15,746 bases of DNA from a virus (lineage: Duplodnaviria; Heunggongvirae; Uroviricota; Caudoviricetes): IMG/VR virus record IMGVR_UViG_2579778952_000009, positions 1 to 15,746 of that record; one strand, written 5' to 3'. Below are positions 2,015-13,022 of the stretch, in pieces; position 1 is the stretch's first letter, and each line of letters begins with the position of its first letter. The notes under the pieces are model-generated. The model worked only from the letters and a program-made list of their open reading frames with translations. It was not told where the DNA came from and ran no database searches. The translations under genes were made by a program, and so were the position numbers.

Positions 2015-2332
2015 ATGGATGCTGGCGTTCTCGTTCTAGCAGTTCAACAATCCCCAATCACAAAACAATTCACTGATAACGAACTTTGCACACTCGCCTG
2101 GTTATGGCGAGCAGGGAATGTGATGTTAATTGCCTACCAGAACGTTACTCATCTTCTTCAGGATGCGGAGCATGGTGAAGCTGGTCACTTCACTTCCATC
2201 GAGCAAGAATATCCCCAGATACTCAACAGAGCGCGAGCAATCCTCGTCCGAGAAACGGCACATGTAAAACTTCAGCCGTGGCAGGATGATAAGTGGAGTC
2301 GAGTATTGCCGTATTTGCGTCAAATCTGTTAG
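2015..2332 (+). CDS. Hypothetical protein, 105 aa
   Basis: ORF with ATG start and a weak AGGGA Shine-Dalgarno upstream. No motif recognised. It lies in the cargo slot between the recombinase remnant and the KilA-N-like gene. Confidence 0.4.
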   Translation: MDAGVLVLAVQQSPITKQFTDNELCTLAWLWRAGNVMLIAYQNVTHLLQDAEHGEAGHFTSIEQEYPQILNRARAILVRETAHVKLQPWQDDKWSRVLPYLRQIC

Positions 2333-5725: not shown

Positions 5726-6808
5726 TTAGAACTGGTAAACCAGACCTACAGCAACGATGTCATCAGTATCAATACCAGCTGTTTTGGTAAACTTACTATC
5801 GTCAATTAAGTTGATTTTGTAATCAACAAAAGTGGACATGTTTTTATTAAAGTAGTAAGTAGCACCGACATCGACATACTTGACTAAGTCTCGGTCACCA
5901 TGAACACCAAGGTCTTTACCTTTTGACTGAAGGTAAGCAACAGATGGGCGCAGACCGAAGTCAAACTGATATTGTGCTACTGCTTCAAAGTTTTGTGCTT
6001 TGTTTGCAATATGGTTATTACCAAAAACGGTCATATTCTGAGTTTCAGAATATGTGGTAGCCAGATAGATATTGTTCGCATCATATTTCAGGCCTGCAGC
6101 CCATACTTCCGCATTTTTGCCGGAGGCATTGAATTTGCTCTTACCATAGGCGACCTGACCGTCAGTGCGATCTGATTTAGCATAGGTTGCACCCACGCCG
6201 AATCCTTCATACTCATAAGTAGTGGAGAAACCGAAACCATCACCATTGGCTTCAGTTACGTCAGTGCGGTCATTTTTACCCTGATACTGAGCAGCAAAGT
6301 TCAGGCCATCGACCAGACCAAAGAAGTCGTTGTTACGATAAGTTGCAACACCAGTAGTGCGACCAGTCATGAACACATCTGTTTGGGTCCAGGTATCACC
6401 ACCGAATTCTGGCAGGACGTCAGTCCACGCACCGATGTCGTATGCTACACCGTAGTTACGGCCGTAATCGATTGAGCCGTAATCACCAAATTTCAGGCCT
6501 GCAAATGCAAGACGGGTTTTGTCTTTGGAAGAACCTTGAGATTCAGCGCGGTTGCCTTTGAATTCATATTCCCACTGACCGAAACCAGTCAGTTGATCGT
6601 TGATTTGGGTTTCACCTTTGAAGCCAAGACGGGCATAAGTAGTATCACCATCATCTGCATCATTAGAGGAGAAGTAGTGCTTAGCATTAACTTTCCCGTA
6701 CAGATCCAGCTTGTTACTGTCTTTATTATAAATTTCAGCTGCCTGAGCAGACATCGCCATCAGTACTGATGCAGCTACAGCAGAAATTGCCACTGTTAAT
6801 TTTTTCAT
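5726..6808 (-). CDS. nmpC: Outer membrane porin NmpC/Lc (OmpC family), apparently intact
   Basis: The track ORF is 5726-6868; the start is set at the internal [23 protein letters not shown] signal peptide (ATG at 6808 with an AAGGG SD). The protein has an AEIYNKD mature N-terminus and the C-terminal beta-barrel signature ...VAVGLVYQF. No insertion sequence interrupts it. Confidence 0.9.
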
Positions 6809-7235
6809 CGTGAGCCCTTTTTTTGAACTATTATTAAAAAATGATGTCACTGCGTGATAAATATTCATCTAATCAATGTGATTATTTCAAGATGTAAGTT
6901 TTGGTTTCTCGTTTAATTTGTGAAGTAGATCTCTATTTTTATCTGAACTTTTTTCTATCGAATCCTATTCATGGCTCTTGGCTGAATAAAAATAAATCTA
7001 TTAGCCAATTTATATTAATGGCTGTTATTTATAAGTGCTCTATAATTTGAAGGTTCAATTTAAATTGGCTAAAAATAACGCTGGAAATTATTTGTTGGTT
7101 ATTTGTTGAGATTTGCTTATGTATTTGTAGTGGTGTTTTCAATACTCGGTAGCATTCTCGCAAATATCATTTAGTGGTTTACGTACGTAAAAAATTGGTT
7201 ATGCTGTTAAGAGTGGTTACTTCGTCACACAGCTT

Positions 7236-7380: not shown

Positions 7381-7596
7381 ATGAAATCCATGGATAAGTT
7401 AACAACGGGTGTCGCCTATGGCACCTCAGCAGGTAGTGCCGGGTACTGGTTTTTACAGCTGCTCGATAAAGTCACGCCCTCACAGTGGGCAGCAATAGGT
7501 GTGCTGGGTAGCCTGGTATTTGGCCTGCTGACGTACCTGACAAACCTTTATTTCAAGATTAAAGAAGATAAGCGCAAGGCTGCGAGAGGTGAATAA
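7381..7596 (+). CDS. essD: Class I holin (lambda S-like) with dual-start motif
   Basis: 71 aa, [10 protein letters not shown]..., with a Met1-Lys2-x-Met4 dual start typical of holin/antiholin pairs, predicted transmembrane segments and a charged C-terminus. GAGGTGGGG SD upstream. Matches DLP12 EssD from memory. Confidence 0.85.
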
Positions 7597-8093
7597 TGCC
7601 TCCATCATTACGAAAAGCTGTTGCTGCTGCTATTGGTGGCGGGGCTATTGCTATAGCATCTGTGTTAATCACTGGCCCAAGTGGTAACGATGGTCTGGAA
7701 GGTGTGAGACATAATCCTTACAAAGACATAGTTGGTGTATGGACTGTATGTTACGGGCATACAGGAAAAGACATCATTCCCGGTAAAACGTATACCGAAG
7801 CAGAGTGCAAAGCCCTCCTGAATAAAGACCTTGCCACTGTCGCCAGACAAATTAACCGGTACATCAAAGTCGATATACCGGAAACAACGCGCGGCGCTCT
7901 TTACTCGTTCGTCTACAACGTGGGTGCTGGCAATTTCAGAACATCGACGCTTCTTCGCAAAATAAACCAGGGTGATATTAAAGGCGCATGTGATCAGCTA
8001 CGGCGCTGGACATACGCTGGCGGTAATCAATGGAAAGGGCTGATGACTCGCCGTGAGATTGAGCGTGAAGTCTGTTTGTGGGGGCAGCAATGA
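7596..8093 (+). CDS. rrrD: Phage lysozyme / endolysin (GH24 family)
   Basis: 165 aa. The start overlaps the essD stop (TAATG). Matches DLP12 RrrD from memory. Confidence 0.9.
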
Positions 8094-8527
8094 GCAGGTT
8101 AACCGCGATTATCTCCGCTCTGGTTATCTGCATCATCGTCTGTCTGTCATGGGCTGTTAATCATTACCGTGATAACGCCATTACCTATAAAGAACAGCGC
8201 GATAAAGCCACGTACATCATCGCTGACATGCAGAAGCGTCAACGTGACGTAGCAGAACTCGATGCCAGATATACAAAGGAGCTTGCTGATGCTAACGCGA
8301 CTATCGAAAGTCTCCGTGCTGATGTTTCTGCTGGGCGTAAGCGCCTGCAAGTCGCCGCCACCTGTGCAAAGTCAACGACCGGAGCCAGCGGCATGGGCGA
8401 TGGAGAAAGCCCAGGACTTACAGCAGATGCTGAACTCAATTATTACCGTCTCCGAAGTGGAATCGACAAGATAACCGCGCAGGTTAACTACCTGCAGGAA
8501 TACATCAGGACGCAATGCCTGAATTAA
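8090..8527 (+). CDS. rzpD: Spanin, inner membrane subunit (Rz-like)
   Basis: ATG 8090 overlaps the endolysin stop. It has an N-terminal transmembrane segment [23 protein letters not shown] followed by a coiled-coil region. The track ORF starts earlier, at 8078. Confidence 0.8.
8289..8474 (+). CDS. rzoD: Spanin, outer membrane lipoprotein subunit (Rz1-like), embedded in rzpD in the +1 frame
   Basis: Embedded [39 protein letters not shown]... with a signal peptide, a lipobox-like VSAC and a Pro-rich segment. The start is chosen at the ATG preceding the signal sequence; the track ORF begins at 8262. Confidence 0.6.
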
Positions 8528-8559
8528 TTTTTTTGCAAATCACAAAGTCCATTTAATGA

Positions 8560-8582
8560 GCCTCGCGATGCGGGGCTTTTTG
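8560..8582 (+). terminator. Intrinsic terminator after the lysis cassette (first of a tandem pair)
   Basis: gccucgc-gau-gcggggc stem (one G-U pair) followed by UUUUU. Confidence 0.5.
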
Positions 8583-8588
8583 CAATAA

Positions 8589-8613
8589 ATGCGTACCGCA
8601 ACGCATGTTTTTT
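8589..8613 (+). terminator. Intrinsic terminator after the lysis cassette (second of a tandem pair)
   Basis: atgcgt-accgca-acgcat hairpin followed by GTTTTTT. Confidence 0.5.
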
Positions 8614-8728
8614 ACACCGAACCTGCCCCTTTGGAATGGGCCTTTGAGGATACCAGTTAGTGCTGGCGAGCCTCGGTGGGCTGGTTTCCTGTGCGGCAAA
8701 GGTTCATTTCAAAGAGTAGGTACACGCT

Positions 8729-9226
8729 ATGAAATCATTAACCCTCTTCAATCAACCAATTCGTATCGGTGAAGATGGCATGATCTGCCTCACTGATATG
8801 TGGAAAGCCAGTGGTAAAAGTGAATCTGAATCGCCTTACCACTACCTGCGAAACAAGCAGACCAAAGAGTTCTTAGCCGAGCTGGAGAAAAACCACGAAT
8901 CTGTGGTTTTTACTGAGCGCGGTGTACACGGTGGAACATATGGCGGGAAGTTTGTTGCTTACGATTATGCGGCTTGGTTAAACCCCGGGTTCAAGTACGC
9001 GGCCTATAAAGTCCTCGATGACTACTTCACCGGAGAACTTCAGCATCGCAACAGCTTAAGTGCGCAGCTCAACATGAAATGTCATGAGTTTGACCAGAAG
9101 AAAGACATGGCGAGCTTCTGCGGACAAGGGCTGGCAGCATGGCGCTATACGAAGCCAGTGTTGGTCGCTGAGATTAACTCCCTGGCTAACCAGCTGCAGA
9201 TTACGATCCCCGGGCTTCCGGGATGA
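8729..9226 (+). CDS. KilA-N domain protein, 165 aa (antirepressor-like)
   Basis: IRIGEDGMICLTDMWKASGKSESESPYHYLRNKQTKEFLAELEK fits the KilA-N pattern (DG-x-I-x-x-T-x-x-x-K-A-x-GK ... W/YLR-x-x-x-T-x-EFL). Its stop overlaps the next ORF's start (ATGA). Confidence 0.7.
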   Translation: MKSLTLFNQPIRIGEDGMICLTDMWKASGKSESESPYHYLRNKQTKEFLAELEKNHESVVFTERGVHGGTYGGKFVAYDYAAWLNPGFKYAAYKVLDDYFTGELQHRNSLSAQLNMKCHEFDQKKDMASFCGQGLAAWRYTKPVLVAEINSLANQLQITIPGLPG

Positions 9227-9534
9227 GTGATCGTGTTATTGAATGCGCCTCCAGAGCGGGGCGCGACTTCTCAGAGTTCATGAAAGGCGAGAAGGGCATG
9301 ATGGAAGCATTGGCCTCGGTGGATGAGTTTGGCGAGCAGCTGCGCCTCAACGGCTGTGTCAATCATCACTTTGTTAGCTACATGATGCGGAACTCGATCA
9401 TGCAGGCATTCATGGACATGGCAAAAGCCGAGAGGAAAGAAGAGCGCCGGCGGAAGCAAAAGCGAAGTAGCCATTACAAAGCCTATCTACGGGTGGGCTT
9501 GATAATGGCTTATACCCTACACGGGATAACTTAA
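9223..9534 (+). CDS. Hypothetical protein, 103 aa, translationally coupled to the KilA-N gene
   Basis: ORF overlapping the upstream stop by 4 nt, with a basic C-terminal stretch KAERKEERRRKQKRSSHYKAY. No motif recognised. Confidence 0.45.
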   Translation: MSDRVIECASRAGRDFSEFMKGEKGMMEALASVDEFGEQLRLNGCVNHHFVSYMMRNSIMQAFMDMAKAERKEERRRKQKRSSHYKAYLRVGLIMAYTLHGIT

Positions 9535-9756
9535 CTGATATCCCTTTTAAAGGATAAAGGTATTCAAGCCTGACACATCATGCGCTGTATCGTCGCCGTA
9601 TTCCCGTATTAACAGAGACCGTAGCCCGACGGGGAACTCCTTCTGCGCGAGTGTGCGGGAATAATCAAAAACGATGCACACCGGGGTTACCGGGTACACA
9701 TATTTCATCATGCCAGCGAGTCCGGTTCTGGCACGGAAGAAACCGGACGTTATGAT

Positions 9757-10845: not shown

Positions 10846-11027
10846 ATGGAAGTCAACAAAAAGCAGCTGGCTGACATTTTCGGTGCGAGTATCCGTACCA
10901 TTCAGAACTGGCAGGAACAGGGAATGCCCGTTCTGCGAGGCGGTGGCAAGGGTAATGAGGTGCTTTATGACTCTGCCGCCGTCATAAAATGGTATGCCGA
11001 AAGGGATGCTGAAATTGAGAACGAAAA
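10846..11027 (+). pseudogene. nohD: Terminase small subunit Nu1 homolog, 5' fragment (first ~60 codons only)
   Basis: MEVNKKQLADIFGASIRTIQNWQEQGMPVLRGGGKGNEVLYDSAAVIKWYAERDAEIENE matches lambda Nu1 from memory. Similarity stops after ...gagaacgaaaa (11027), where the sequence continues as side-tail-fibre repeats in another frame. Confidence 0.8.
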
Positions 11028-13022
11028 TCCGAAACTGCAGCGGCATCATCAAAGAACGCGGCGAAAACCTCAGAAACGAATGCAGCTAATAGTGCACAGG
11101 CGGCAGCGACCTCAAAGACTGCATCGGCAAACTCCGCGACAGCAGCCAAAAAATCAGAAACCAACGCGAAAAATAGCGAGACAGCCGCAAAGACGAGCGA
11201 AACCAACGCAAAGTCCAGCCAGACGGCAGCGAAAACCAGCGAAACGAATGCCAAAGCCAGTGAAACTGCGGCAAAAAACAGCCAGGTTGCAGCAGCCCAA
11301 AGCGAGAGCGCGGCAGCCGGTTCTGCGACTTCAGCAGCTGGATCAGCAACTGCTGCGGCTAACAGCCAGAAAGCTGCGAAGACGAGTGAAACTAACGCAA
11401 AGTCCAGCCAGACGGCAGCGAAGACCAGCGAAACGAATGCCAAAACCAGCGAAACTGCGGCGAAAAACAGTCAGGATGCAGCAGCCCAAAGCGAGAGTGC
11501 TGCAGCTGGTTCTGCAAGCGCGGCGGCTGCTTCTGCCATTGCATCAGCCAACAGTCAAAAAGCTGCAAAAACCAGTGAAACCAACGCAAAGGCGAGCGAG
11601 ACTGCGGCTGCTAACTCGGCGAAAGCATCAGCTGCAAGCCAGACGGCTGCAAAAGCAAGTGAAGACGCAGCCAGGGAGTACGCAAGCCAGGCAGCAGAGC
11701 CGTATAAATATGTCTTACAGCCGCTTCCTGATGTGTGGATACCGTTTAACGATTCACTGGATATGATTACGGGCTTTTCGCCATCATATAAAAAGATTGT
11801 TATTGGTGATGATGAAATAACAATGCCTGGCGACAAGATTGTAAAGTTTAAACGCGCATCAAAAGCAACTTACATTAATAAATCTGGTGTGCTGACAGAG
11901 GCTGCAATCGATGAACCTCGCTTTGAAAAGTATGGATTGCTGATTGAAGGGCAGCGTACAAACCTGTTAATAAACAGCACAAATCCATCAAAGTGGAACA
12001 AGTCATCAAATATGATTTTAAATACATCAGGTGTAGATGATTTTGGTTTCCAGTACGCAAAATTCACATTAAAACCAGAAATGGTGGGGCAAACCTCAGC
12101 CATTTCTATTGTCACAGTATCTGGAAGCAAAGGATATGATGTTACCGGCGATGAAAAGTATGTAACTATCTCATGCAGGGTACAAAGTGGGACTCCAAAT
12201 TTAAGATGTCGATTACGATTTGAAGAATATGATGGATCTACCTACAAATTCCTGGGTGATGCTTACTTAAATATGACAGATTTATCGATTGATAAAACTG
12301 GCGGCGCTGCAAGTCGTATTACTGCAAGGGCTGTTAAAAATGAAGCAAGCAAATGGATTTTCTTTGAGGCAACAATTAAGGCACTTGATACAGAAAATAT
12401 GATCGGTGCGATGGTGCAATATGCACCACCAAAAGGGGGAAGCACTGGTGCAGATGATTATATTTATGTTGCAACTCCTCAGGTCGAAGGCGGTTCGTGC
12501 GCTTCTTCGTTTATTATTACTGAGGCAACGCCAGTCACAAGAGCCAGTGATATGGTGAATATACCAACAAATAACAATATCGGTACACCACCTTTAACAT
12601 TTCTAGCTGAAGTTCATACAAACTGGAACGAAACGCCAAATGCAGCACCACGAATTTTTGATACCAGTGGTGGGAGCACAACTCCGGGTCAATATATAAG
12701 TGTTGCTATTAGTTCAACATTATTTCCTGGTGTTACGATGCACAATAAAAACGGTAGTACAGTAGCCGCCGTATCGCCAGTATTATTTGAATAAAAATCT
12801 GTTCTTGGATTTGTTTTAAATGAATCTGGTAATGTGCATTTCGTTAGCAATGCCCAGCATGGGACTCCTAAAACCACGGATCATGTCGGTGTTAAATCTG
12901 GTTATTTCTTCAGGATTGGGGGACAGACTAATAGCGGTCTACGTCATCTTTTCGGTCACATTCGTAATTTTCGTATATGGCATAAAGAATTAACCGATGC
13001 ACAAATGGGAGAGGTAATATAA
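11028..13022 (+). pseudogene. Side tail fibre (Stf-like) gene, 3' portion, fused to the nohD fragment by deletion and carrying an in-frame TAA at 12792-12794
   Basis: Frame 0 is open from 11019 and encodes Stf-type repeats (AAKTSETNAKSSQTAAKTSETNAKASETAAKNSQ...), then a C-terminal domain. A single TAA at 12792 interrupts the same frame, which continues to 13022 with a LamG-like ending (GHIRNFRIWHKELTDAQMGEV). Confidence 0.7.
11187..11564. repeat. Imperfect tandem direct repeat, two copies of 189 bp (63 codons), inside the tail-fibre fragment
   Basis: Copy 1 starts gcaaagacgagcgaaaccaacgcaaagtccagccagacggcagcgaaaaccagcgaaacgaatgcc... at 11187. Copy 2 starts gcgaagacgagtgaaactaacgcaaagtccagccagacggcagcgaagaccagcgaaacgaatgcc... 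at 11376. Each copy contains shorter degenerate sub-repeats encoding AKTSETNAK. Confidence 0.75.

What the first reader, a model, noticed from the sequence alone, without database searches (positions are those of the whole stretch)
8729..9534. KilA-N domain gene plus overlapping small basic ORF occupying the post-lysis (bor) moron position
Seen: the two ORFs are translationally coupled (ATGA overlap at 9223-9226) and lie directly after tandem terminators that close the lysis cassette; there is no bor-like lipoprotein ORF on the minus strand. The first has a clear KilA-N signature; the second is basic at its C-terminus and has no recognisable domain. Established: the region between Rz and cos in lambdoid phages is a classical moron slot (bor in lambda). 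Inference: this pair may be an antirepressor-type or exclusion module expressed independently of late transcription. It is the second KilA-N-type protein in a 15-kb remnant.
Basis: partly seen in the sequence, partly recalled or inferred. Interest (0 to 1): 0.45.

Follow-up and report, generated by a model that had tools for sequence, protein, structure and literature searches.

The report
KilA-N version of the phage rha locus

Summary
The two ORFs are real. ORF1 (8729-9226) has KilA-N and ORF11CD3 domains. ORF2 (9223-9534) overlaps it by ATGA. They follow two intrinsic terminators after Rz, where K-12 DLP12 carries borD.

The pair is HK620 hkbK/hkbL, also found in HK97, HK022, mEp phages, Stx phages and about 7% of complete E. 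coli genomes.

Corrections:
- ORF2 is canonically 85 aa. The 103-aa form here comes from a 10-bp deletion seen in 9 of 408 E. coli records.
- The "second KilA-N protein" is a truncated Rha-family P22_AR_C fragment.

New context: a ~100-nt hairpin leader (8621-8721) buries the ribosome-binding site. It is supported by covariation, has no Rfam family, and is the leader of P22 and phi80 rha. It matches 85 of 89 nt of the P22 small RNA "P22F". P22 Rha shares the ORF11CD3 domain.

So the pair is a KilA-N allele of the rha slot, inside the late operon. No promoter was found, which argues against independent expression. ORF2 is a three-helix protein found only next to KilA-N genes. The molecular target is unknown.

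The parts
8558..8581 (+). Intrinsic terminator T1 after Rz (stem GCCTCGC / GCGGGGC, loop GAT, T5)
   Evidence: Read from the sequence and present in the MFE fold. An equivalent hairpin plus T run, with a different sequence, precedes the cassette in HK620, Klebsiella phage RAH1, P22 and other contexts. It is annotated as a terminator in mEp235 and phi80.
8589..8613 (+). Second terminator T2 (ATGCGT-ACCGCA-ACGCAT, then T6). It occupies the place of a small GC-rich hairpin (GCGCA-N5-7-GCGCAT) that is not followed by a T run in most relatives.
   Evidence: Terminator scan, MFE fold, and comparison of leaders.
8621..8721 (+). Structured mRNA leader, a long imperfect hairpin. P1 8621-8626/8716-8721 buries the Shine-Dalgarno UAGGU. 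P2 is 8629-8646/8697-8714. P3 is 8647-8650/8687-8690, with a 6-nt 3' bulge at 8691-8696. P4 is 8652-8658/8679-8685. Positions 8635-8720 correspond to the P22 small RNA P22F.
   Evidence: The MFE is -48.7 kcal/mol with z = -3.2. Eighteen divergent leaders each fold alone into the same architecture. Covariation on 61 distinct sequences: 83% of cells paired versus 37-51% when partners are slid; 27 of 36 pairs with double changes versus 6-13; 0 of 500 shuffles reach the score. RNAalifold on an unfitted MAFFT alignment also finds covarying pairs. The Shine-Dalgarno is paired in 51 of 61 leaders. No Rfam family matches. It matches 85 of 89 nt of P22F (PMC13397905).
8729..9226 (+). ORF1, 165 aa: KilA-N domain (aa 9-101, nt 8753-9031) plus ORF11CD3 domain (aa 109-161, nt 9053-9211). 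It is 96% identical to HK620 HkbK.
   Evidence: Pfam, PHROG phrog_129 'transcriptional regulator', and 96% identity to HK620 HkbK. AlphaFold model pLDDT 82: an alpha/beta domain 1-84 plus a long helical hairpin 86-156. Foldseek gives only weak hits, to DdrC and the Mbp1 APSES DNA-binding domain.
9223..9534 (+). ORF2, 103 aa here and 85 aa canonically (equivalent to HK620 HkbL). It is a three-helix protein with a basic C-terminal tail. The conserved part is 9223-9449. Positions 9450-9534 are a frameshifted extension.
   Evidence: phrog_875, E 4e-51. The family is small: 138 clusters, the named ones all Enterobacterales, and 21 representatives in 1.84 billion proteins. AlphaFold pLDDT 93.5 with helices 3-20, 26-42 and 48-80. 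No PDB fold or sequence match.
9449..9450 (+). Junction of a 10-bp deletion (GCGTAAGCGA lost between GCG repeats) that frameshifts the ORF2 C-terminus. The canonical stop would be TAG at 9468-9470.
   Evidence: Alignment with PhiR49_1 and Stx2 phage 1717 and their translations. A query across the junction matches at 99% or more in only 9 of 408 E. coli records.

Best explanation
The pair is the KilA-N allele of the classical rha slot of lambdoid and P22-like phages. This slot is a replaceable cargo position between the lysis genes and the packaging genes, inside the late operon.

Shown:
- The same conserved leader RNA, preceded by an intrinsic terminator, heads P22 rha and phi80 rha (Phage_pRha domain).
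- It also heads this KilA-N+ORF11CD3 gene, the HK97/mEp235 KilA-N+P63C gene, a P22_AR_N+ORF11CD3 gene, an HNH-AP2 gene and an ORF2-like+T5orf172 gene.
- P22 Rha and ORF1 share the ORF11CD3 C-terminal domain.

Inferred mechanism:
- Transcription reaches the pair only when Q-modified RNA polymerase reads through the terminators after Rz, so the pair is expressed late in lytic growth.
- Translation of ORF1 is further gated, because the leader hairpin base-pairs the Shine-Dalgarno sequence.
- The hairpin forms in vivo and survives as a stable ~89-nt RNA. This was seen as P22F in P22 infection. Whether that RNA results from activating processing, inactivating processing or plain decay is unknown.
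- ORF2 is made by translational coupling through the ATGA overlap, in fixed proportion to ORF1.
- ORF1 probably binds DNA through its KilA-N domain and oligomerises through the ORF11CD3 helical hairpin.
- ORF2 occurs only next to KilA-N genes, whatever their C-terminal domain. It most likely modulates or partners the KilA-N domain.
- By analogy with Rha, which blocks phage growth in IHF-deficient hosts, the product is probably harmful when mis-expressed. That would explain the double gate.

The molecular target (a repressor, host DNA, or competing phage DNA) is not known. In this defective prophage the module is probably a passenger, with a slightly damaged ORF2.
For: Identity and distribution:
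- The region is 100% identical in DLP12-like prophages of several E. coli genomes, and the same pair is present in HK620, HK97, mEp235, HK022 and Stx phages.

Late-operon context in intact phages.

Leader:
- The covariance model R1 finds the leader upstream of HK97 and mEp235 KilA-N+P63C genes that were not in the seed (76 bits).
- R1 also finds it upstream of P0191 (39 bits, E 4e-6), phi80 rha (127 bits) and P22 rha (114 bits).
- blastn shows the HK620-type leader is 100% identical upstream of phi80 rha.

Link to Rha:
- P22 Rha is Phage_pRha + ORF11CD3. It is 35% identical to ORF1 over the ORF11CD3 region.
- A natural Phage_pRha + ORF11CD3 protein is 97% identical to ORF1 over 77% of its length (P0133).
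- P22F RNA was detected in infected cells and matches the window at 85 of 89 nt (PMC13397905).
- The Rha phenotype and IHF regulation come from the phi80 record note and PMC4936722.

ORF2:
- It follows a KilA-N gene in all resolvable cases, with ATGA in 264 (plus 8 mis-picked frames) of them.
- ORF2 DNA that is 91-95% identical is paired with KilA-N proteins only 23% identical to ORF1.
- A distant ORF2-like domain is fused to T5orf172 (hhalign probability 95.6%). One such gene lies next to a KilA-N+P63C gene.
Against: - No experiment addresses this allele. DNA binding, oligomerisation, an ORF1-ORF2 interaction and toxicity are all inferred.
- Near-identical ORF2 pairs with very different KilA-N proteins. 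That argues against a tightly co-evolving protein interface.
- The P22F ends do not look like a simple RNase III double cut. The 5' end lies in the P2 arm and the 3' end lies 6 nt before the AUG. The RNA may therefore be only a decay-resistant remnant.
- In HK620-type leaders a weak promoter-like pair (TTCACA-N16-TATTAA) can be read upstream of the hairpin (by eye). Some autonomous transcription in some relatives cannot be excluded.
- The covariation alignment was fitted to the model, which inflates the pairing counts.
- The primary rha papers could not be read.
Confidence: 0.6

Rival explanations
1. Classical antirepressor. ORF1, with or without ORF2, binds and inactivates CI-type repressors of this or co-resident prophages. 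This would lock in lytic growth or cross-induce neighbours, as P22 Ant and the Gifsy antirepressors do.
For: ORF1 belongs to the Bro/Ant/Rha domain network. PHROG hits include 'anti-repressor' families at weak E-values. The same leader heads a P22_AR_N+ORF11CD3 gene that matches 'anti-repressor Ant' at 1e-105. P22 rha is annotated as anti-repressor. Gifsy-1 AnrP is an antirepressor-like protein under RNA-gated translation (PMC4825925).
Against: ORF1 has no P22_AR_N, ANT or Bro-N domain. No Arc/Mnt-type operator module lies next to it. Late-only expression would come after the lysis decision has been made. The known Rha phenotype is inhibition of phage DNA synthesis, not induction. No repressor interaction has been tested.
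Confidence: 0.2
2. Anti-phage exclusion or abortive-infection module, BstA-like, that protects the lysogen from other phages.
For: [quoted passage not shown] There is a weak PADLOC hit to candidate system PDC-S22 (E 1e-8, over the KilA-N region only). The slot is a cargo position that holds bor in lambda and DLP12.
Against: ORF1 has 165 aa, against 307 for BstA, and a different C-terminal domain. No promoter was found, terminators lie upstream and the ribosome-binding site is sequestered, so expression in a quiescent lysogen is unlikely. No PADLOC model of a named defence system matches, and ORF2 matches none at all.
Confidence: 0.1
3. In this window the module is only a decaying relic of a defective prophage with no selected function. 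The leader hairpin is just a nuclease-resistant structure or a mosaic boundary sequence rather than a regulator.
For: The prophage lacks head and tail genes, because Nu1 is fused to fibre remnants. ORF2 carries a frameshifting 10-bp deletion. IS1 and a recombinase interrupt the early region. The leader is shared among unrelated downstream genes, as expected of a recombination linker. P22F could be a decay intermediate.
Against: ORF1 is intact and 96% identical to HK620 HkbK, and ORF2 keeps residues 1-78. Compensatory base changes preserve pairing in 27 of 36 leader pairs across many lineages. This indicates selection on structure and not only on sequence. The cassette is kept in many functional phages.
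Confidence: 0.3

Closest known systems
rha (orf201) of phage P22 and rha of phage phi80
   Same: Same position: after Rz/Rz1, before the packaging genes, co-oriented in the late operon. Same upstream terminator and same structured leader (R1 scores 114 and 127 bits). The window's leader is nearly identical to P22's. P22 Rha shares the ORF11CD3 C-terminal domain.
   Different: The N-terminal domain is KilA-N instead of Phage_pRha. P22 and phi80 have no ORF2 homologue overlapping the 3' end. The Rha phenotype (growth inhibition in IHF-deficient hosts) has not been tested for the KilA-N allele.
HK620 hkbK/hkbL, HK97 p60/p61 and mEp235 gp59/gp60
   Same: HK620 carries the same two genes (96% protein identity for ORF1) with the same ATGA overlap and leader type. 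HK97 and mEp235 carry the same ORF2 and leader family.
   Different: HK97 and mEp235 pair ORF2 with a KilA-N+P63C protein only 23% identical to ORF1. The window copy of ORF2 is frameshifted at its end. None of these genes has a tested function.
P22 small RNA P22F (Naaz et al. 2026, PMC13397905)
   Same: Window 8635-8720 matches the 89-nt RNA at 85 positions, with the first 80 nt identical. It is the body of the leader hairpin.
   Different: P22F was reported as an unexplained small RNA upstream of rha. Its covariation-supported structure, its sequestration of the ribosome-binding site and its spread across many different downstream genes are shown here. They are not in that paper as far as I read it.
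RNA-gated antirepressor operons: P1 c4-icd-ant, P22 sar-ant, Gifsy-1 IsrK-orf45-anrP
   Same: A Bro-network regulator whose translation is blocked by RNA structure or pairing around the ribosome-binding site. A terminator lies just upstream, and there is an ATGA-coupled small ORF (PMC4825925).
   Different: No Rfam C4 or isrK match, even at E up to 10. The small ORF lies downstream of the regulator, not upstream. No trans-acting RNA has been identified. The block is a local hairpin.
BstA abortive-infection protein
   Same: [quoted passage not shown]
   Different: Different C-terminal domain, about half the length, a different genomic position and no sign of lysogenic expression.

Membership tests
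KilA-N domain proteins (Pfam PF04383) | Profile match above the curated threshold over the whole domain | tested here: met
   57.6 bits against a cut-off of 23.8, covering residues 9-101 of the protein and positions 8-106 of 107 in the profile.
KilA-N domain proteins (Pfam PF04383) | Alpha/beta DNA-binding fold related to APSES domains | tested here: inconclusive
   The model has strands 2-6 and 9-13 and helices up to residue 84. The Foldseek hit to the Mbp1 APSES domain has only E 0.31, and DdrC has E 0.09.
ORF11CD3 domain (Pfam PF10549) | Profile match above the curated threshold | tested here: met
   50.5 bits against a cut-off of 25, covering residues 109-161 and the full 54-position profile. 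It is modelled as a helical hairpin.
rha-slot module of lambdoid and P22-like phages | Position directly after Rz/Rz1, co-oriented with the late operon and upstream of packaging genes | tested here: met
   In the window Rz ends at 8527 and a Nu1 remnant starts at 10846. The order is the same in P22, phi80, HK620 and PhiR49_1.
rha-slot module of lambdoid and P22-like phages | Leader homologous to the one upstream of P22 and phi80 rha | tested here: met
   Covariance model R1 scores 112 bits on the window, 114 on P22 and 127 on phi80. The leader matches P22F at 85 of 89 nt.
rha-slot module of lambdoid and P22-like phages | Phage_pRha N-terminal domain (PF09669) | tested here: not met
   ORF1 has KilA-N instead. 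P22 and phi80 Rha have PF09669.
rha-slot module of lambdoid and P22-like phages | Rha phenotype: the product blocks phage growth in IHF-deficient hosts | not testable with these tools
   Known only for phi80 and P22 rha (record note; PMC4936722).
P22 Ant-type antirepressor | P22_AR_N, ANT or Bro-N effector domains | tested here: not met
   None of these domains is found in ORF1 or ORF2. The only P22_AR_C match in the window is the unrelated fragment at 2015-2332.
P22 Ant-type antirepressor | Binds and inactivates a prophage repressor | not testable with these tools
BstA abortive-infection family | KilA-N-like N-terminus plus the BstA C-terminal domain (~307 aa) | tested here: not met
   ORF1 has 165 aa and an ORF11CD3 C-terminus. 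PADLOC gives only a weak PDC-S22 hit over residues 60-90.
bor-type lysogenic-conversion moron | Lipoprotein gene on the opposite strand with its own promoter in the Rz-cos interval | tested here: not met
   BorD tblastn finds nothing in the window. The minus-strand ORFs in 8528-9756 are 48-67 aa and lack a Bor match.
c4 / IsrK-type RNA-controlled antirepressor operon | Upstream c4/IsrK-family RNA detectable with the Rfam models | tested here: not met
   No Rfam match at gathering scores in the window or in 5 related loci. Nothing relevant appears at E up to 10 over 8480-8780.
c4 / IsrK-type RNA-controlled antirepressor operon | Ribosome-binding site of the first ORF sequestered by RNA structure | tested here: met
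   This is a prediction only. The Shine-Dalgarno is paired in the MFE structure of 51 of 61 distinct leaders, with a median unpaired probability of 0.07.

The most novel reading that the evidence does not exclude
The ~100-nt leader, seen experimentally as P22F, may be an undescribed and widespread cis-regulatory RNA class. It would act as a common expression gate for a whole set of interchangeable and probably toxic Bro-network cargo genes in phage late operons: Rha, KilA-N, P22_AR_N, HNH-AP2 and T5orf172 types. It may also be the element through which host state, such as IHF or RNases, controls the classical Rha phenotype. ORF2 would then be a dedicated partner or antidote of the KilA-N domain.
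Probability: 0.3. Interest if true: 0.6.

Novelty: new member of a known kind. Interest (0 to 1): 0.38.

Why it matters
The pair itself is common prophage cargo, and finding it here changes little. The analysis does tie together three items that the records and papers read here treat separately:
- the uncharacterised KilA-N/HkbL gene pair of HK620, HK97 and Stx phages;
- the classical but mechanistically unexplained rha gene of phi80 and P22;
- the newly reported P22 small RNA P22F.

If the shared leader is a real translational gate, there is now a concrete, mutable element for testing how Rha-type genes are kept silent. That test would need stem mutations and compensatory mutations. It could also show why these genes become harmful in IHF-deficient hosts. 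The work also marks ORF2 as a KilA-N-specific accessory protein worth a binding test. For annotation, it suggests that P22 rha starts at the conserved ATG at 39644, not at the GTG inside the hairpin.

Tried and rejected
- **Defence system:** PADLOC gave only a weak partial hit for ORF1 and nothing for ORF2.
- **Solved relatives:** phmmer against PDB sequences found nothing for either protein. Foldseek against PDB gave no significant match for ORF2, only generic helical bundles, and only weak ones for ORF1.
- **ORF2 as a zinc-binding protein:** C8, C45, H48 and H49 are conserved in close relatives. The cysteines are lost in the distant ORF2-like domains of P0190 and P0191, so I dropped this idea.
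- **Natural ORF11CD3-ORF2 fusion as evidence of interaction:** P0001 is a single sequence and probably a frameshift at the ATGA, so I did not use it.
- **Known RNA families:** Rfam found nothing at gathering scores. The best sub-threshold hits (rimP leader, isrJ, DUF805b) are far below their cut-offs.
- **Own promoter:** the consensus scan found none in 8614-8728. A TTCACA-N16-TATTAA pair in HK620-type leaders is not conserved in other types.
- **IHF site:** the ATATCAAC motif seen in many relatives lacks the full IHF consensus and is absent from the window type. I did not pursue it.
- **RNase III as the processing enzyme:** the P22F ends do not fit a paired double cut, so I left this open.
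- **Literature:** searches for hkbK/hkbL and for KilA-N toxicity gave nothing relevant. The 1995 rha paper is not held in the library.
Full report
**What the window is**

The region is 100% identical to a DLP12-like defective lambdoid prophage in several complete E. coli genomes, next to appY and ompT. Gene order, from Pfam and the RefSeq annotation:
- IS1, then a serine recombinase, then a P22_AR_C fragment;
- ninB-like/ybcN, ninE, ybcO, rusA, Q;
- a porin gene on the minus strand;
- holin 7381-7596, lysozyme 7596-8093, Rz 8078-8527 with Rz1 embedded;
- the pair under study;
- a DUF1398 gene (ybcV-like) and a DUF3950 gene (ylcI/ynfO-like), both on the minus strand;
- a Nu1 remnant fused to tail-fibre remnants, then appY.

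**Checking the observation**

ORF1 (8729-9226) and ORF2 (9223-9534) are present, with ATGA at 9223-9226. ORF1 matches KilA-N (E 1.3e-15) and also ORF11CD3 (E 2.4e-13). ORF2 matches no Pfam family.

Two intrinsic-terminator-like hairpins follow the Rz stop: T1 at 8558-8581 and T2 at 8589-8613.

K-12 DLP12 has borD in this interval. Homology between the window and K-12 breaks at 8338 and resumes at 9581. BorD finds no match in the window.

Two corrections are needed:
- ORF2 carries a 10-bp deletion between 9449 and 9450, relative to PhiR49_1 and Stx2 phage 1717. The canonical protein has 85 aa and ends RKRAEAKAK. The last 25 residues here are out-of-frame read-through. Only 9 of 408 E. coli records with this region carry the deletion junction.
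- There is no second KilA-N protein. ORF 2015-2332 is the P22_AR_C end of a truncated Rha-family gene.

**How common the pair is**

- The pair is HK620 hkbK/hkbL (96% protein identity for ORF1).
- It is also in Stx phages 1717 and 2851, PhiR49_1, Shigella and Salmonella phages.
- At 74% DNA identity it occurs in Klebsiella phage RAH1, where it sits among tail genes.
- ORF2 DNA matches in 407 of 5426 complete E. coli genomes.
- HK97 and mEp235 have ORF2 at 91-95% DNA identity. There it lies behind a different KilA-N protein, KilA-N+P63C, only 23% identical to ORF1.
- Across all fetched loci, every ORF2-like ORF with a resolvable neighbour follows a KilA-N gene. There are 265 with ORF11CD3, 8 more where my script picked the wrong frame, and 5 with P63C. 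The ATGA overlap is present in 264 plus those 8.
- No ORF2 follows the P22_AR_N+ORF11CD3 gene or P22 and phi80 rha.

**The proteins**

- *ORF1.* The model (pLDDT 82) is an alpha/beta domain (1-84) followed by a long helical hairpin (86-156) that corresponds to ORF11CD3. Fold matches are weak: DdrC at E 0.09 and the Mbp1 APSES domain at E 0.3.
- *ORF2.* The model (pLDDT 93.5) is a three-helix protein with a basic tail. It has no fold or sequence relative in the PDB.
- *Family size.* The ORF2 family is very small. It has 138 clusters at 90% identity, and the named ones are all Enterobacterales. It has 21 representatives among 1.84 billion proteins.
- *Distant relatives.* The most distant members (P0190, P0191) carry the ORF2-like domain fused to a T5orf172/MUG113 domain. 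This is supported by hhalign probability 95.6% and by reciprocal PHROG hits. One sits in the post-lysis slot of an unrelated phage. The other sits next to a KilA-N+P63C gene and an Arc/Mnt/Bro-N region.

**The leader**

- *Structure.* The 200-nt interval before ORF1 is not a promoter region by the consensus scan. Positions 8621-8721 fold into a long imperfect hairpin whose base pairs the Shine-Dalgarno UAGGU.
- *Conservation of the fold.* HK620 and Klebsiella RAH1 have different sequences with the same fold, each preceded by its own terminator. From 274 leaders (56 distinct), 18 divergent representatives each fold alone into the same architecture. That architecture is a basal CCUUU/AAAGG stem, a lower stem, a GAGGA/UCCU stem with a 6-7-nt 3' bulge, and an upper stem.
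- *Covariation.* RNAalifold on the plain MAFFT alignment finds 12 pairs, 7 of them with compensatory changes. I then built covariance model R1 and aligned 61 distinct matches to it. In that alignment, 83% of cells pair, against 37-51% when partners are slid. Compensatory changes occur in 27 of 36 pairs, against 6-13 in the slid controls. None of 500 shuffles reaches the covariation score. The alignment is fitted to the model, so these numbers lean in its favour.
- *Strand.* G-U pairs place the structure on the + strand RNA (by eye).
- *Ribosome-binding site.* The Shine-Dalgarno is paired in 51 of 61 leaders.
- *Known families.* No Rfam family matches.

**Link to rha**

- R1 also hits upstream of genes that were not in its seed. 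These are HK97 and mEp235 KilA-N+P63C, a P22_AR_N+ORF11CD3 gene ("anti-repressor Ant" PHROG, 1e-105), an HNH_3+AP2 gene and the ORF2-like+T5orf172 gene.
- blastn with the HK620 leader shows it is 100% identical upstream of phi80 rha, and present upstream of Rha-family genes in many phages.
- R1 scores 127 bits upstream of phi80 rha and 114 bits upstream of P22 rha.
- P22 has the same order as the window: terminator, small hairpin, window-type leader, then ATG at 39644. The annotated GTG start at 39575 lies inside the hairpin.
- P22 Rha is Phage_pRha + ORF11CD3. It aligns with the C-terminal third of ORF1 at 35% identity.
- A database protein joins Phage_pRha to an ORF11CD3 region that is 97% identical to ORF1's (P0133).
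- The phi80 record describes rha as causing "DNA synthesis inhibition in IHF- hosts". PMC4936722 summarises the Friedman laboratory work: Rha blocks phage growth in IHF-defective hosts, and IHF regulates rha. I could not read the primary papers.

**Experimental trace of the leader**

A 2026 small-RNA sequencing study of P22-infected Salmonella reports an 89-nt RNA, P22F. It was validated by RT-PCR, and its 3' end lies 6 nt from the rha start. Its function is unknown, and the authors liken such RNAs to IsrK (PMC13397905).

Its sequence matches window 8635-8720 at 85 of 89 positions, and the first 80 nt are identical. So the hairpin is transcribed during lytic infection and accumulates as a stable species. 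Its ends do not match a simple paired RNase III cut. It could be a processing product or a decay-resistant remnant.

**Interpretation**

The pair is a KilA-N allele of the rha slot. It lies inside the late operon in all intact relatives. The terminators upstream must therefore be read through by Q-modified polymerase for the phage to reach its packaging genes. The pair is then transcribed late (inference).

Terminators, the lack of a promoter and the sequestered ribosome-binding site together suggest tight silencing in the lysogen. That is the opposite of a bor-type, lysogen-expressed gene.

The closest working analogies are other RNA-gated Bro-network regulators: P1 c4-icd-ant, P22 sar-ant and Gifsy-1 IsrK-orf45-anrP (PMC4825925). 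The Rfam models for those RNAs do not match here, and the small ORF lies downstream rather than upstream.

What ORF1 and ORF2 act on remains unknown. Antirepressor and exclusion roles are possible but unsupported. In this defective prophage the module may have no selected role.

**Verdict**

The object is a known, widespread cassette of unknown function. The added value is the link between the KilA-N/HkbL pair, rha and the P22F leader RNA.

Noticed in passing
window 2015-2332 (and 749-1903, 1-698): ORF 2015-2332 is only the P22_AR_C end of a Rha-family gene, 86-87% identical to 'Rha protein' genes of phages PhiR5_1 and PhiR26_1. Its N-terminal part is missing, next to a ybcK-like serine recombinase ORF and an IS1 copy. 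The prophage therefore once carried a second Bro-network gene in its early (nin) region.
   Followed up: partly
L295 (P22, NC_002371) 39575-39652: The annotated GTG start of P22 rha/orf201 (39575) lies inside the conserved leader hairpin. The ATG conserved in all relatives is at 39644 and is preceded by AAGAAGG. This would make Rha 178 aa rather than 201. The phi80 rha start (L294 2593) likewise lies 36 nt upstream of the conserved ATG.
   Followed up: partly
L221 2-138 and L260 4-144; L012 2550-2686; L016 3878-4009 and L017 166-297; L283/L285 3363-3483; L294 4093-4206: The same leader RNA model hits upstream of unrelated cargo genes: P22_AR_N+ORF11CD3, HNH_3+AP2 and ORF2-like+T5orf172. It also hits as second copies within one phage, including a second phi80 site upstream of ORF x171.28.
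   Followed up: partly
window 9493-9558: This 66-bp segment just after ORF2 recurs in HK620, HK97 and mEp235, but 180-240 bp further downstream of their ORF2. The window type therefore lacks an intervening segment, and the blastn pieces overlap by about 15 bp at the junction. Its content and meaning were not examined.
   Followed up: no
window 9547-9711 (minus strand): A 54-aa minus-strand ORF between ORF2 and the DUF1398 gene is annotated as a hypothetical protein in PhiR49_1. The DNA from 9581 onward is also conserved in K-12 DLP12, where no gene is annotated.
   Followed up: no
window 10846-12794: The Nu1 (small terminase) ORF keeps only its first ~80 residues and then runs into a long, highly basic, repetitive out-of-frame stretch. 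RefSeq annotates the region as a Nu1 pseudogene joined to a head-fibre pseudogene. The whole head and tail region has been deleted.
   Followed up: partly
window 5726-6868 (minus strand): An intact 380-aa porin gene (OmpC/OmpD/NmpC type) lies between Q and the holin gene. In K-12 DLP12 the equivalent nmpC is split by IS5.
   Followed up: no
window 8499-8579: There is a sub-threshold Rfam hit to isrJ (14.6 bits against a gathering score of 37, E 2.8) over the end of Rz and terminator T1. isrJ is the small RNA downstream of the antirepressor-like anrP gene in Gifsy-1. The hit is probably chance.
   Followed up: no
L009 (JARKOR010000234.1, labelled Candidatus Nanosynbacter MAG): A 4-kb contig binned as a Nanosynbacter (Saccharibacteria) genome carries the leader, which scores the same as the window's, and an ORF2 97% identical to the window's. 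This looks like mis-binned Enterobacteriaceae phage DNA.
   Followed up: no
window 8262-8474: The +1-frame ORF inside Rz has a lipobox-like LGVSAC motif. This is as expected for the embedded Rz1 spanin lipoprotein, so the lysis cassette looks complete.
   Followed up: no
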